Shown here: positions 1-4,765 of the stretch, one piece after another
How positions within the stretch are numbered: the first letter of the stretch is position 1
Layout of the letters: the number at the start of each line of letters is the position of its first letter
Source: an uncultured delta proteobacterium
GTDB lineage: Bacteria; Myxococcota_A; Polyangia; Polyangiales; Polyangiaceae
DNA length: 64,000 bases
Assembly: GCA_963731595.1 (NCBI GenBank)
Contig: CAVSWE010000003.1
Location: forward strand, 236,948-300,947
Reading direction: 5' to 3'
Notes under the pieces: model-generated
Database searches by the model: none
Told to the model about the DNA's origin: nothing
The model's input: the letters and a program-made list of their open reading frames with translations, nothing else
Made by a program: the position numbers and the translations under genes

Positions 1-3000
1 GCGCGAGGATCACGACCACCATCGGCACGTCGTCACCTGCCGCAATCAGTTGCCGCGCCATCTCGAAGGCGACAAACGCTCCGTTGCAGAAGCCACCGAA
101 GCAATACGGACCGTGCGGCCGGATTGCCCGAAGGGCGCGAAGGCGATCGGCTGCCATCGCCTCAATGGTGTCGGGAATGGCCGAGTCGTCGAGTGTGTGC
201 GGCTTCACGACGAGCACGGGCTGGTCGGACCCGAGGGCCTGCGCAAGAGACCGGCTGTAAAACCCGCCGCCGTGCAGGTCGCCATGCAGAAATACGAGCG
301 GTGGCCGGTTTCCGTTATTGTTGATCGTCACGATCGGCGCGTCGAGGTCCGTTGGGTGCTCCCGAAGCAGCCGAGCCAATCCAGCAATTGTGTCTTCCAT
401 AAAAAGTGCTGCAAGCGGCGCGGTGAGACCGGTCTCGCGCTCGATTTCATCCAAAAATTGTGCCGCCAGCAGCGAATGGCCGCCAAGCTCGAAAAAATGA
501 TCGAAGACCCCGATTCCATCGACTCCGAGCAGACGCTCGCAGATGCCTACAAGCACTTGTTCGAACATATCGCGTGGCGCAACGCGAACGGCGGCAGGCG
601 CCGCATCGGGTTCACTGACGGTTGGCAGCGCGCGCCGGTCGATCTTGCCGTTCGCGTCGAGTGGCAGCGACTTCAGCCAGACGATCGATGCGGGGAGCAT
701 GTATTCCGGCAGCAGCGGCTTGAGGTCATTCCACAGGTTGGCGGGCGGTGCCCCGGAACTCGCGGCTGCCACCACGTAGGCAACCAATCGCCGTGTGTCG
801 GTTGTCTCGCCGCGCACCACGACCACCGCGTCGCGCACTTGCGGCAGCCGTGCAATCGCGGCCTCGACTTCCCCGAGCTCGATGCGATGGCCGCGGATCT
901 TGACCTGCCGATCCAGTCGGCCGAGGAATTCGATTGCGCCATCCGCGCGGTAGCGGACGCGATCGCCGCTGCGATAGAGCCTGGCGTTGGGATCATCGGT
1001 AAACGGGTTCTGGACAAAACGCTGGGCCGTCAACTCGGGCGCGTTGAGGTACCCGGCGGCAAGCCCGGGTCCGCCGATATAAAGCTCCCCTGGCACCCCG
1101 ACCGGCACCGGTTCGCCCTCCGGGCCCATCCAATATGTAGACCTCGGTATTCGCGATCGGCCGACCGATCGGGATGGTGATCGCATCGGTCGGCGCGGCG
1201 TGCACTTCGTGCCACGTTGCAAACGTCGTCGTCTCCGTTGGTCCGTAGACGTGCAGCAGGCGCGCAGTGGTGCCGCGTCCAGCGGCTCTCACCCAGCGAG
1301 GCTCCACCGCTTTTTTCGCCGCCGAAAAGCACAGTATGGCAACCGCGAAACACGTCCGGTGCGTGGCGCGCCATCTGGTTGAACAGCGCTGTCGTCAGGA
1401 ACAGCGTCGTAATTCCCCGCGTTCTCCAACATCGCCACGAACGCTCGCGGTGACAACACGACCATGCGCGGAACGATGACCACACGCCCGCCGTTGACGA
1501 GTGCGCCCCAGATTTCGAACGTTGCGGCATCAAAGGCCGGATTGGCAGCGTGGGCGAGCGCATCGGTTGCATCGATATGCACGTAGTCCGTACCGCACGT
1601 CAGGCGCACAATGGCCCGGTGCGGAGTCAGCACGCCCTTCGGCGTGCCGGACGTACCCGACGTGTACATGATGTATGCGAGCTGCGACGACGATTCCGCA
1701 TGATCGTGATTGTGCGTCGGCTGCGCCGCGATCACGGAGGCGTCGCGATCGACGCATAGGACCCGGTCCCCGGTCACCGGGACCCTTGGAAGCAGAGAGG
1801 TCGCGGTGACGAGCAGTGACACGTCGGCATCGCCGAGCATGAACACAAGTCTCTCTGCGGGTAGCTCGGGATCGAGTGGCACATATGCGCCGCCAGCCTT
1901 CAGGATACCCAGCTTGGCGATGATAAGCTCCGCGCTGCGCTCGAGGCAGAGACCGATCCTCGGCGCCAAGCCCGCCGCCCGCTGGCGCAGCAGGTGCGCA
2001 AGTTGATTGGCGCGCGCATTGAGTTCGCCGTAGGTGACTACGCGCTCGCCATCGATCACCGCCGTCGCTCCCGGCGTCCGTGCGGCAACGGCCTCGACCA
2101 GGCGATGCACGCAGGTCGCCTCGGGATAAGGCGCTGCGGTCCGGTTCCATGCCACGAGCAGGCGTTCGCGCTCAGCCGCGCCCTGCAGCGGCAAACGGTC
2201 GATCGTTTGCCCGGGCTCGGCCACTATCGAGCCAAGCAGCGTTCGATAGTGGTCCACCATGCGCTCGATCGTCGCGGCATCGAATAGCGCGGTCGCATAA
2301 TTGACCTCACAGCGCAGTCCGTCGGCCATCTCGCTCAGCCTAAACGACAAGTCCAATTCCGAGGTTGGGCTGTCCGTAAAGCCACTTCTCGACGTTTCGA
2401 TGCCTGCAAAATTCCACTCGACAAACGATCGGTTCACCAACGTGAACAGCACCTGGAACAACGGATTGCGCGACGGGTCGCGCCTGGGGGCGGCCTGCTC
2501 GACCAGTTTTTCGAAAGGGAGATCCTGGTGCGCGTAAGCATCGAGCGCGGTCCGCCGGACGCGCGCGAGAAGCGCCGCAAATGTGGGCGCGCCGCTCAAG
2601 TCAACGCGCAGTACAAGCGTGTTCACGAAAAAACCGATCAGCTGCTCGAACTCCGGGCGCGTCCGGCCGGAGGTCGGTACCCCGACCGCGACGTCATCCT
2701 GACCGGAATAACGATGAAGCAGCACGGTGAACGCCGCAAGCAGCGTCATGAACAGCGTCGCGCCTTCGCGACGACCGAGTTCGCGCAATTGGCGCGTCAG
2801 CGTCGCGTCGATTTCGAAGCTCAGCCACGCGCCACGCGAATCGGCCTGCGCCGGTCGCGCCCTGTCCGCTGGCAGGTCCTGCACCGGCAACTCGGCGAGC
2901 ACCGGTTTCCAGTAAGCGAGCTGCTGCTCGAGGGCACCATCGCCTTGCAGGTACTCGCGCTGCCACACGGCGTAGTCCGCATACTGTAGTGGCAGATTCG

Positions 3001-3449
3001 GGAGAGGTGACGGCGCGTTGGCATGGCATGCGTTGTACAGCGCTGAAAGCTCGCGCCCGAGCAGGACAGACGACCGGCGGTCGGTCACGATGTGGTGCAG
3101 CGTCAGCACAAACCAGTGCTCGTCGTCTGACAGCCGCAACAGGCTTGCGCGCAGTAGCGGGCCGCGCGCCAGTTCGAATGGGGTGTTCACCGAAATCCGC
3201 CGCCTGCCGTTCGGCCTCGGCTACCCGTTCGGCTGCGGGCAGCGCGCGAAAGTCCCGGAACTCGAGATCGACGTGCAACTCCGGCGCAATGACCTGCACC
3301 GGCACGCCCTGCTCGACGCCGATGTGCGTGCGCAGTACCTCGTGGCGCGCGACAACGCCATTGAGCGCGTGATGCAATGCAGCCACGTTGAGCGCGCCGA
3401 TCATGCGCAGCCGTTTCGACTCGTTGTAGACGGATCGGTCGGCCGCCAT
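1..3449 (-). CDS. Non-ribosomal peptide synthetase, single module C-A-T-TE; TE domain truncated by the window edge; reading frame interrupted at least 4 times
   Basis: Minus-strand translation gives C-domain motifs (MIGALNVAALHHALNGVVARHEVLRT.. then HHIVTDRRS near nt 3095) and adenylation motifs LAYIMYTSGTSGTPKGV (A3, ~1660), FDAATFE (A4, ~1534), YGPTETT (A5, ~1250), GELYIGGPGLAAGYL/ARLYRSGD (A7/A8, ~1075-965). PCP core is FDHFFELGGHSLLAAQ (~500-455) and TE begins EHPTDLDAPIVTI..LVFLHGDLHGGGFY..GPYCFGGFCNGAFVAFEMARQL (330-1). Frame changes occur near 3180, 1450, 1300 and 1085. The plus-strand ORF 50..1180 is antisense noise. Confidence 0.85.
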
Positions 3450-3780
3450 TCGATCTAGCAGCCACAGTCGCTGCTGAGCGAAGGACGTCGGAAAACATCA
3501 CCGCGGGCAGTCGCCGCCGATGGGACATCCGGTGCTGGGCCGCGGTTCGCCGACGCGTTTCTCGCAGTCATCGTCTTCTCATTCCACGATTCTTAGCTTG
3601 CCGCATTCATAAAATCTGGAGGCCAAGGGCGGAATTTAACCACCGACACACGAATTTGCAGGAAGTCGCTCACTTGGAAGATATTTTCTAATCAGGCTCT
3701 TGCAACACACGCCAAGTTTCAAGAGCAGAGGCACACAGTCTCGATCGAACCGCACAAAGGCAAGAAAGGTTACAGAATAG

Positions 3781-3809
3781 CTACGTTGCTCATTTTGCCG
3801 CAACGTAGT
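3781..3809. repeat. Perfect 9-bp inverted repeat CTACGTTGC-N10-GCAACGTAG in the lower-GC intergenic region between the O-methyltransferase and the NRPS (operator or terminator-like hairpin)
   Basis: Read directly from the sequence; flanked by an AT-richer stretch (3540-3800) that probably holds the NRPS promoter. Confidence 0.45.
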
Positions 3810-4072
3810 CACCCCATGCTCACGCGTCCCTTCGCGTCAGCCAAGTCTCAGGGGAAGACGATCGACAGCCAGCCGGAACGCGTCCGCAGTTTATGTCAGT
3901 CGACACCTTATCCCTTGAACACCGCGCGCTGCGGACCCTGTCTTGTGAGTATCGGGGGAAGCGTTGAACCTTCAACCTTCGGAATATGAGGCCGGATTCG
4001 GCCTGGGGTTGGATCTTAGCAATCAACCACCTGTCGCGCTTGTCGAACGCAAGGCAACTGCAATCAGAAGTT

Positions 4073-4765
4073 TCAACACGGCGCGTCTCCGTTGACAAGC
4101 GCGATCAACATACCGTCGTGTCCCTTGCTTCCAACGGTCTGAACTGCCGTCGCGCTCAGGCGCGGCTCGTTGGAAAGCAATTCAAACATGCGGCGATTAC
4201 CCTGAATGCCTGGATCCGGATTGGTGGCATCTATTATGGCCCCAGTGCGCACGACGTTATCCACGACAATGAGACTGCCGGGGCGGGACAATCTGAGCGC
4301 CCACACAAGATAATGTGGATTGTTGTGCATATCCGCATCGATGAATATTAGATCGAAAGGCCCAAGGCCTTCCGCTTCGATTATTGGCAAGGTATGTTAG
4401 AGCCACACCAATGCGCACATCGACGCAATGTGCCAGAGGCCCGATCGCGCAATATTCTCACGGGCGACTGCAGCGCGCCGTGAATCAGCCTCCAACGAGA
4501 TCAAGCGACCACCGCTAGGTAAGGCACGCGCAAGCCAGATTGTACTGTACCCTCGCAGGGTACCGATTTCGAGGATAGCCCGCGCCCGAGAAAGCCGCGC
4601 TAGCAAGTGCAGAAGCTTCCCCTGAAGTGGCGATACATCACGGCGGGGAAAGTTGGCGGCAGATGCTAAAGCTGCATCGAGCGCAGGATCGGAGCAGGCA
4701 AGCAAATCGGTCAGGTATTGATCCACCGCGTGCCAAAGCTGCTCGGGTATTGGGAATAGACGCAT
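4073..4765 (-). pseudogene. Class I SAM-dependent O-methyltransferase (caffeoyl-CoA/catechol OMT family) interrupted by an in-frame TAA at about 4397-4399
   Basis: N-terminal piece carries motif I ARAILEIGTLRGYSTIWLARAL; C-terminal piece carries GPFDLIFIDADMHNNPHYL and LIVVDNVV. Both pieces are in the same frame, separated only by TAA-CAT-ACC. Confidence 0.7.

What the first reader, a model, noticed from the sequence alone, without database searches (positions are those of the whole stretch)
1..4765. Single-module NRPS (C-A-T-TE) whose thioesterase has Cys in place of the nucleophilic Ser, paired with an interrupted catechol-type O-methyltransferase
The TE active-site region reads GPYCFGGFCNGAFVAFEMARQL, which is GxCxG where type-I TEs have GxSxG. 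Cys-TEs are rare and in the known cases (obafluorin ObiF1, sulfazecin SulM) catalyse strained-ring (beta-lactone/beta-lactam) release. ObiF1 likewise carries a C-A-PCP-TE core. The module starts with a C domain (an acyl/aryl-starter or trans-loaded donor is implied) and is preceded by a CCoAOMT-family O-methyltransferase that could modify a catechol. Both genes are damaged: the NRPS needs at least 4 frame changes and the OMT carries an in-frame TAA. So this is either a decaying biosynthetic gene cluster at an island edge or a victim of sequence error. The cluster continues beyond the left window edge. The only Stachelhaus positions readable, D-A-F from FDAATFE, hint weakly at an aliphatic or hydrophobic substrate.
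Basis: partly seen in the sequence, partly recalled or inferred. Interest (0 to 1): 0.7.

Follow-up and report, generated by a model that had tools for sequence, protein, structure and literature searches.

The report
Cysteine-thioesterase NRPS module, frameshifts likely artefacts
The left end of the window encodes the last module of a small peptide-making enzyme line whose release domain really does use cysteine instead of serine, but that cysteine marks a large uncharacterised enzyme family, and the apparent gene damage is most likely sequencing error.

Summary
Observation confirmed. On the minus strand, 3571->2, lies a C-A-T-TE NRPS, with its TE cut by the window edge. The TE nucleophile is Cys (TGC, 86-88). 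A CCoAOMT-family O-methyltransferase (4765-4073) lies upstream.

The Cys is genuine. Every ortholog (57-92% identical) has TGC there. Of the TE units aligned from the nearest relatives, 166 of 171 have Cys, usually in a GG[FYH]-C-N-G motif.

The damage is probably not biological. A sister assembly (L005) differs at 7 bases in the NRPS and carries none of the window's frame-breaking indels or the TAA. It has intact 1303-aa and 229-aa ORFs. hutU and six nuo genes in the window are frameshifted too. Between intact relatives, pN/pS is about 0.26.

In relatives the module closes a conserved cluster lying beyond the left edge: FAD oxidase, PCP, an A-ACP-KS-AT-ACP-TE PKS and an A-T-C protein. The hosts are uncultured Casimicrobiaceae-like betaproteobacteria. 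The product and the mode of release are unknown.

Verdict: a new member of a known kind, of modest interest.

The parts
2..3571 (-). NRPS termination module C-A-T-TE. As read it is interrupted; the 3' end of the TE lies beyond window base 1.
   Evidence: Pfam on the stitched translation. Intact orthologs of 1274-1309 aa. Intact 1303-aa ORF in sister assembly L005.
2156..3496 (-). Condensation domain. The motif reads HHIVTDR at 3077-3097, with Arg in place of the usual Gly.
   Evidence: Pfam residues 26-472. Best solved matches are the elongation-type C domains of Txo1/Txo2 (~1e-98) and TycC (7.6e-80); AB3403 scores only 1.4e-32. Motif coordinates.
644..2095 (-). Adenylation domain with specificity code DAFFLGVTFK (Ile).
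   Evidence: Pfam. Code residues read at FDAATFE 1514-1534, ITTLF 1390-1413, VLFGGE 1315-1332, HVYGPTETTTF 1221-1253 and NGKIDR 635-652. The code is reported for Ile in PMC2533009 and PMC13122637.
365..556 (-). Thiolation (PCP) domain, with the GGHS phosphopantetheine site at 464-490.
   Evidence: Pfam PP-binding 3e-12. Coordinates.
2..310 (-). N-terminal ~100 residues of the thioesterase domain. The window ends one residue after position I (+27 from the nucleophile, Leu here). The catalytic His is outside the window.
   Evidence: Pfam Thioesterase profile positions 16-100 of 226. Full domain seen in orthologs and modelled at pLDDT 90.3.
86..88 (-). TGC codon for the TE nucleophile Cys, within GGFCNG (80-97).
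   Evidence: TGC is at the same position in nine related loci representing seven distinct orthologs.
1126..3492 (-). Span holding the seven frame-shifting indels private to this assembly (~3492, 3201, 1418, 1316, 1284, 1268, 1126).
   Evidence: Four-way alignment with L005, L009 and L006.
4073..4765 (-). CCoAOMT-family (Methyltransf_3) O-methyltransferase. It is interrupted by a +2 (~4435), a +1 (~4396) and TAA at 4397-4399.
   Evidence: Pfam. An intact 229-aa ORF with FIDAD...VVDN metal-site motifs is present in L005. Alignment.
5002..6208 (+). IS110-family insertion flanking the cluster. It is context, not part of the pathway.
   Evidence: Absent from L009. Transposase Pfam hits DEDD_Tnp_IS110 and Transposase_20 in the L005 copy.

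Best explanation
This is the terminal module of a small hybrid PKS/NRPS assembly line from an uncultured Casimicrobiaceae-like betaproteobacterium.

Shown:
- The domain order is C-A-T-TE.
- The A-domain code is DAFFLGVTFK, published for Ile.
- The TE nucleophile is a conserved Cys in a GG[FYH]-C-N-G elbow.
- The TE belongs to a large, almost exclusively Cys, uncharacterised clade that terminates one- to three-module NRPSs. Its nearest solved relative is AB3403 of Acinetobacter baumannii.
- Orthologs are intact and under purifying selection.
- In relatives the gene is followed by a GlcD-like FAD oxidase, sometimes a PhnZ-like HD protein, a free-standing PCP, an A-ACP-KS-AT-ACP-TE(Ser) PKS and an A(acid)-T-C protein. 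All of these would lie left of the window.

Inferred mechanism:
1. The A domain loads L-Ile on the T domain.
2. The elongation-type C domain joins a carrier-bound acyl or peptidyl donor, delivered in trans from one of those neighbours, to Ile.
3. The acyl-Ile thioester moves to the TE Cys by transthioesterification.
4. It is then released by water or by an internal nucleophile. Which of these occurs cannot be told.

The frame breaks and the TAA are most likely consensus errors of this assembly, not biology.
For: Domains.

Intact orthologs at 65-90% identity, all with Cys. TGC codon in nine related loci (seven distinct orthologs).

TE clade: 25252 representatives at E<=1e-3 and 223 at <=1e-30. 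Of 171 aligned TE units, 166 are Cys, and 117 of those 166 have Asn at +1. Clade architectures are C-A-T-TE, A-T-C-A-T-TE and C-A-T-C-A-T-TE.

Ile code. C-domain type. Cluster context.

Error reading:
- L005 matches window 1-6212 at 99.2%. Within the NRPS there are 7 mismatches against 17 gap columns.
- Every frame-breaking indel is private to the window, while L005, L009 and L006 agree with each other.
- L005 has intact NRPS, OMT and IS110 ORFs.
- hutU needs at least 5 frame changes.
- nuoE, F, G, H, L and N give split or truncated Pfam matches.
- pN/pS is 0.26-0.29 for the NRPS and 0.18-0.29 for the TE.
Against: - No reads are available, so real strain-specific inactivation cannot be excluded.
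- Indel density is higher at the left end (about 1 per 0.5 kb) than in the nuo operon (about 1 per 2 kb).
- The C-domain motif is HHIVTDR rather than HHxxxDG in this lineage, which could weaken condensation.
- The donor substrate, the order of the three carrier-bearing proteins and the product are not established.
- The TE's third triad residue is unclear. Position I is Leu, Gln or Glu in the close orthologs.
- The Ile call rests on a code read by motif alignment from my memory of the GrsA numbering, not on a predictor.
Confidence: 0.7

Rival explanations
1. The NRPS and OMT are genuine pseudogenes. The cluster is decaying in this strain next to an IS110 insertion.
For: - Nine or more frame-disrupting events fall in 4.7 kb, next to an IS element absent from L009.
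- Another relative (L001/L006) also shows a split NRPS and a split FAD oxidase.
- Indel density is highest at this end of the window.
Against: - In the NRPS, indel events are about as numerous as the 7 base mismatches, between assemblies that are otherwise ~99.8% identical there.
- Insertions (+1, +1, +4, +4, +3) outnumber deletions.
- Several indels are homopolymer length changes, such as GGG to GGGG, AA to AAAAAA and CC to C.
- The sister assembly is intact.
- Housekeeping hutU and nuo genes are broken as well.
- The L006 break is a single extra C in another long-read MAG.
Confidence: 0.12
2. The Cys-TE releases its product as a strained beta-lactone or beta-lactam, as in obafluorin (ObiF1) and sulfazecin (SulM).
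For: - Cys nucleophile, and a C-A-T-TE core as in ObiF1 (PMC6668435).
- Asn follows the Cys, as in SulM's Q-C-N motif.
- Position I after beta6 is not acidic here.
- Asp175 in the beta7-beta8 loop is conserved in 10 of 10 close orthologs. It is replaced only in P0029, which has Asp at position I.
Against: - The A-domain code is Ile, which has no beta-OH or beta-NH2.
- No transaldolase, Dap-forming gene or in-cluster sulfotransferase appears in the conserved neighbourhood.
- Across the clade there is no consistent relocated Asp. Forty-six of 166 units lack an acid at both position I and position 175.
Confidence: 0.05
3. The Cys-TE performs some other non-hydrolytic release that needs a thioester acyl-enzyme. 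One example is Dieckmann cyclisation of a beta-ketoacyl-Ile to a 3-acyl-5-sec-butyl tetramic acid. Another is attack by a poor nucleophile.
For: - The neighbouring PKS has no KR, so it would make a beta-ketoacyl chain.
- Ile is the loaded residue.
- Characterised Cys-TEs lose their special reaction but not hydrolysis on Cys-to-Ser exchange (PMC11536411 and PMC11298585).
Against: - The PKS carries its own canonical Ser-TE.
- The NRPS C domain looks like a peptide-elongation type.
- A literature search linking Dieckmann or tetramate release to Cys-TE domains found nothing relevant.
- This reading is purely inferential.
Confidence: 0.13

Closest known systems
AB3403 (ABBFA_003403) of Acinetobacter baumannii, PDB 4ZXH/4ZXI
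   Different: AB3403 keeps Asp at position I after beta6 and has Phe, not Asn, after the Cys. Its C domain matches ours only at 1.4e-32, against ~1e-98 for Txo1/Txo2. Its structure was solved bound to glycine (title of 4ZXI), whereas this module reads as Ile. It is not an ortholog.
ObiF1 (obafluorin beta-lactone synthetase), PDB 6N8E
   Same: C-A-PCP-TE core and a GxCxG Cys-TE. Position I is not Asp.
SulM TE (sulfazecin monobactam), PDB 8W2D
   Same: Cys nucleophile followed by Asn. The product is likely to be small.
BulbE-TE (bulbiferamide indolylamide macrocyclase)
   Same: A type-I NRPS TE with an essential catalytic Cys (PMC11536411).
   Different: BulbE has Asp at position I (Cys961/Asp988/His1097) and macrocyclises a ureidopeptide through Trp.

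Membership tests
Type I NRPS termination module (C-A-T-TE) | Condensation domain with an HHxxxDG active-site motif | tested here: inconclusive
   The domain is clear (Pfam 2.5e-108). The motif reads HHIVTDR in the window, L005 and L009; more distant orthologs have HHIVTDG. Both His residues and the Asp are kept.
Type I NRPS termination module (C-A-T-TE) | Adenylation domain with core motifs and Asp235/Lys517 | tested here: met
   AMP-binding 6.3e-85 and AMP-binding_C. LAYIMYTSGTSGTPKG, FDAATFE, YGPTE and NGKIDR are all present.
Type I NRPS termination module (C-A-T-TE) | Carrier domain with the GG(H/D)S phosphopantetheine serine | tested here: met
   ELGGHSLLA at 464-490. PP-binding 3e-12.
Type I NRPS termination module (C-A-T-TE) | C-terminal alpha/beta-hydrolase TE with a nucleophile elbow and a catalytic His | tested here: met
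   The elbow GGFCNG is in the window. The PGDH His is seen only in orthologs, because the window is cut. AF2 model pLDDT 90.3; the top structural hits are all TE domains.
Beta-lactone/beta-lactam-forming Cys-TEs (ObiF1/SulM type) | Cys nucleophile | tested here: met
   TGC at 86-88, conserved in all orthologs.
Beta-lactone/beta-lactam-forming Cys-TEs (ObiF1/SulM type) | Catalytic Asp moved from position I (after beta6) to position II (after beta7) | tested here: inconclusive
   Position I is Leu here, and Gln, Glu or Gly in close orthologs. The beta7-beta8 loop carries a conserved Asp175 and often Glu168. Clade-wide covariation is weak.
Beta-lactone/beta-lactam-forming Cys-TEs (ObiF1/SulM type) | Gln-Cys-Asn motif (SulM criterion) | tested here: not met
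   The motif is Phe-Cys-Asn (Tyr or His in relatives). The Asn is present and the Gln is absent.
Beta-lactone/beta-lactam-forming Cys-TEs (ObiF1/SulM type) | Last A domain selects a residue with a beta-nucleophile (beta-OH amino acid or 2,3-Dap) | tested here: not met
   The code DAFFLGVTFK is published for Ile, with Val as a minor substrate.
Beta-lactone/beta-lactam-forming Cys-TEs (ObiF1/SulM type) | TE groups with SulM, ObiF and type II TEs by sequence or structure | tested here: not met
AB3403-type single-module NRPS of Acinetobacter | C-A-T-TE with a Cys-TE of the same fold | tested here: met
AB3403-type single-module NRPS of Acinetobacter | Orthology of the whole module (C and A domains, triad with Asp at position I) | tested here: not met
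   The full-length match to AB3403 (7.2e-152) ranks behind LgrA, Txo, PvdL and McyA. The C domain matches at only 1.4e-32. Position I is Leu.
CCoAOMT-like (Methyltransf_3) metal-dependent O-methyltransferases | Family profile match and the D/D/N metal-site motifs | tested here: met
   PF01596 at 4.3e-28 for the window copy and 1.1e-33 for the intact L005 copy. IFIDAD and VVDN are present. The substrate (catechol or other) was not tested.

The most novel reading that the evidence does not exclude
The GG[FYH]-C-N-G thioesterases are a distinct, widespread and wholly uncharacterised family of release enzymes for very short NRPS products in uncultured soil and water bacteria. In the window's own lineage the triad acid has left position I, with a conserved Asp175 in the beta7-beta8 loop. 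These enzymes would use the thioester acyl-enzyme for a release reaction that a Ser-TE cannot do, giving a new class of small acyl-Ile metabolites.
Probability: 0.2. Interest if true: 0.6.

Novelty: new member of a known kind. Interest (0 to 1): 0.35.

Why it matters
Three practical points follow.

1. Cys-nucleophile TEs are used as a genome-mining flag for unusual release chemistry. This case shows that Cys, and even a Cys-Asn pair, marks a large environmental clade unrelated to the beta-lactone and beta-lactam enzymes. Cys alone is therefore a poor predictor of strained-ring products. The A-domain code and TE phylogeny must be checked as well.

2. The clade terminates mostly one- to three-module NRPSs, and no member has a known product. 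An intact ortholog, such as the Casimicrobiaceae contig DASZFQ010000152.1, would be a tractable entry point.

3. The case is a caution for pseudogene calls on long-read MAGs. A 'decaying cluster' disappeared once a sister assembly was compared.

Tried and rejected
- **GC3 frame plot** to count frameshifts across the window. It was too noisy to use. I replaced it with protein and Pfam comparisons.
- **Rfam** over the whole window and a **promoter/terminator scan** of 3400-5400. Nothing above background.
- **The ~160-nt OMT-NRPS intergenic insert** relative to L009 (3898-4054). It has no other copy in the window or in the fetched loci apart from its counterpart in the sister assembly L005, so it was not pursued.
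- **Greedy ORF calling** on the more distant loci L010 and L050. It was unreliable because of long antisense ORFs at high GC and frameshifts, so it was not used for cluster comparison.
- **Asp relocation test.** I asked whether loss of the position-I acid is compensated by Asp175 across the clade. It is not: 46 of 166 units lack an acid at both. There is only a weaker enrichment of acids at reference positions 168, 169 and 173.
- **Model coordinates.** I looked for them to measure the distance from the candidate acid to the His, but they were not exposed.
- **Literature search** linking Dieckmann or tetramate release to Cys-TE domains. Nothing relevant.
- **Named or cultured members** of the nearest TE clusters. 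All come from MAGs or metagenomes.
- **Substrate of the A-T-C protein** via solved structures. Only weak, mixed hits (a vicenistatin-type enzyme, oxalyl-, malonyl- and benzoate-CoA ligases, MenE), so no call was made.
- **Sulfotransferase at 11137-11802** as a possible SulN analogue. Rejected: it lies in a strain-specific insert beyond hutU and is absent from the orthologous clusters.
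Full report
**What is there**

The gene is on the minus strand. Three-frame translation of 4900->1 shows an NRPS starting at ATG 3569-3571 and running off the window at base 2. 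Stitching six reading-frame segments gives 1189 residues. These match Condensation (2.5e-108), AMP-binding (6.3e-85), AMP-binding_C, PP-binding and the first ~85 positions of Thioesterase (6.1e-13).

The quoted motif GPYCFGGFCNGAFVAFEMARQL is present, and the nucleophile codon is TGC at 86-88. The window ends one residue after position I (+27 from the Cys, Leu here), so the TE lid and the catalytic His are not in the window.

Upstream, at 4765-4073 on the same strand, is a Methyltransf_3 (CCoAOMT-like) O-methyltransferase with TAA at 4397-4399.

**Is the Cys real?**

Yes. Intact orthologs of 1274-1309 aa exist at 65-90% identity, and all read GG[F/Y/H]CNG. The codon is TGC in nine related loci, representing seven distinct orthologs.

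I searched 1.84 billion cluster representatives with the full 222-aa TE of the 90%-identical ortholog P0001. This gave 25252 hits at E<=1e-3 and 223 at <=1e-30. I then aligned the TE units of the best 150 together with the NRPS hits:
- 166 of 171 have Cys and 5 have Ser.
- 117 of the 166 Cys units have Asn at +1.
- The Trp in 'GW' and the His are essentially invariant.

Full-length members of this clade are C-A-T-TE, A-T-C-A-T-TE or C-A-T-C-A-T-TE. All of the nearest ones come from MAGs or metagenomes. Unrelated Cys-TEs also turned up in Verrucomicrobia, Planctomycetaceae, Opitutaceae and Acidobacteriota loci fetched in passing. So Cys is the rule in this TE lineage, not a rarity.

**Is the damage real?**

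Probably not.

A genome-collection scan found L005 (CAVXPH010000006.1, a MAG labelled 'uncultured beta proteobacterium'). It matches window 1-6212 at 99.2%. I made a four-way alignment with L005, L009 (a Casimicrobiaceae MAG whose NRPS is identical to P0001) and L006. Every frame-shifting indel in the NRPS is private to the window, and the three relatives agree with one another:
- NRPS: -1 at ~3492, +1 at ~3201, +1 at ~1418, +4 at ~1316, -2 at ~1284, -1 at ~1268, +4 at ~1126.
- OMT: +2 at ~4435 and +1 at ~4396. The TAA arises inside that short shifted stretch.

Within the NRPS, window and L005 differ by 7 mismatches but 17 gap columns. Several indels are homopolymer length changes. L005 has uninterrupted ORFs for the NRPS (1303 aa), the OMT (229 aa) and the IS110 transposase (341 aa).

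The problem is not confined to the cluster:
- hutU (6425-8231) needs at least five frame changes relative to L009.
- In the nuo operon, nuoE, F, G, H, L and N give truncated or frame-split Pfam matches.

Between the intact relatives, pN/pS is 0.26-0.29 for the NRPS and 0.18-0.29 for its TE. I put about 0.12 on real, strain-specific inactivation.

**What kind of TE is it?**

By sequence, the best solved match of the T-TE region is AB3403 of Acinetobacter baumannii (2.7e-31). AB3403 is itself a C-A-T-TE protein with GGWCFGG. ObiF1 matches only at 1.2e-3.

An AlphaFold2 model of the P0001 TE reached pLDDT 90.3. Its structural matches are:
- Foldseek: AB3403 first at 6.5e-14.

The literature adds context. 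ObiF1 and SulM combine Cys with an Asp relocated to the loop after beta7, and SulM has a Q-C-N motif. AB3403 and BulbE are Cys-TEs with Asp at the usual position I (PMC6668435, PMC11298585, PMC11536411).

In this orthogroup, position I is Leu, Gln, Glu or Gly. An Asp (reference position 175, in RDLGW) in the beta7-beta8 loop is conserved in 10 of 10 close orthologs. It is replaced only in P0029, which has Asp at position I. That is a hint of acid relocation.

Three things keep it a hint. Across the clade, 46 of 166 units lack an acid at both positions. Only a modest enrichment of acids at positions 168, 169 and 173 accompanies loss of the position-I acid. I could not obtain model coordinates to test the geometry.

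**What does the module load and join?**

Reading the ten specificity positions against GrsA motifs gives DAFFLGVTFK. The GrsA numbering is from my own memory. That exact code is reported for Ile, with Val as a minor substrate, in cyanopeptolin OciB/OciC, and for L-Ile in the suomilide and aeruginosin pathways (PMC2533009, PMC13122637).

Ile has no beta-hydroxyl or beta-amine. This removes the chemical basis for beta-lactone or beta-lactam closure on the terminal residue.

The C domain is most like ordinary elongation C domains: Txo1/Txo2 at ~1e-98 and TycC at 7.6e-80. It is far from AB3403's (1.4e-32). The donor is therefore probably a carrier-bound aminoacyl or peptidyl species supplied in trans, not a lipid starter.

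**Cluster context, from relatives**

Downstream of the NRPS, which means left of the window, the intact loci carry:
- a GlcD-like FAD-linked oxidase;
- a PhnZ-like HD-domain protein (not in all lineages);
- a 95-aa free-standing PCP;
- a 1.9-kaa PKS, A(acyl)-ACP-KS-AT-ACP-TE, with a canonical Ser/Asp/His TE;
- divergently, an A-T-C protein whose A domain lacks the amino-acid Asp235.

The FAD-oxidase, HD, PCP, PKS and A-T-C cassette recurs in a Steroidobacteraceae MAG with different NRPS partners. The OMT is adjacent in the window, L005, L009 and the P0007 contig, but not in L001/L006 or L002/L008. No catechol-forming or aryl-acid-specific enzyme was identified, and the A-T-C substrate is unresolved. 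I could not order the three carrier-bearing proteins or predict the product.

**Verdict**

It is wrong in linking the TE to strained-ring chemistry and in treating the locus as decaying.

This is an Ile-incorporating termination module with an AB3403-like Cys-TE from a large, uncharacterised clade, in an orphan hybrid cluster of uncultured Casimicrobiaceae-like bacteria. I rate it a new member of a known kind, of modest interest.

Two things could raise the interest. One is proof that the clade performs release chemistry that depends on Cys. The other is proof that the triad acid has moved in this lineage.

Noticed in passing
window 5002-6208 (+): An IS110-family element (transposase ORF 5353-6198) lies between the OMT and hutU. 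It is absent from the Casimicrobiaceae relative L009. The sister assembly's contig ends exactly at its far edge (window 6212).
   Followed up: partly
window 6425-8231 (+): hutU (urocanate hydratase) needs at least five frame changes relative to the intact L009 copy. The next gene (8238-9041) is intact at 93.7% identity.
   Followed up: partly
window ~45100-55500 (+): In the nuo (complex I) operon, nuoE, F, G, H, L and N give truncated or frame-split Pfam matches. The indel noise therefore reaches housekeeping genes far from the NRPS.
   Followed up: partly
window 9640-11827: A ~2.2-kb segment carries an Acyl_transf_3 gene (9688-10920, -) and a Sulfotransfer_4 gene (11137-11802, +). Its GC is 0.57-0.61, against ~0.65 nearby. 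It replaces ~300 nt of L009. It looks like a strain-specific insert unrelated to the NRPS cluster.
   Followed up: partly
window 3077-3097 (-): The C-domain active-site motif reads HHIVTDR (Gly to Arg) in the window, L005 and L009. More distant orthologs have HHIVTDG. The consequence for condensation is unknown.
   Followed up: no
L005 9084-14825 (-); L008 15643-21402 (-): The PKS next to the NRPS in relatives ends in a canonical Ser-TE (GWSMGG, IAMIDS, GGTHF). One cluster therefore carries both a Ser-TE and a Cys-TE.
   Followed up: partly
L001/L006 (MAG MFD03346.bin.1.142): This relative also shows a split NRPS (322 + 931 aa) and a split FAD oxidase. The NRPS break is a single extra C. Frameshifts therefore also occur in another MAG of the same MFD series.
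   Followed up: partly
L004 3688-13894; L083 1-16412: More distant Cys-TE orthologs sit in other contexts. L004 has an A-T / C-A-T / C-A-T-TE tripeptide line beside trp genes. In a Steroidobacteraceae MAG (L083) the FAD-oxidase, HD, PCP, PKS and A-T-C cassette pairs with TE-less NRPS modules.
   Followed up: no
window 34698-41589 (-): A lactate-utilisation block is present: LUD-domain/4Fe-4S protein, lactate permease, CCG-domain protein and FAD_binding_4 protein. The permease and the FAD protein give truncated Pfam matches, again consistent with frameshifts.
   Followed up: no
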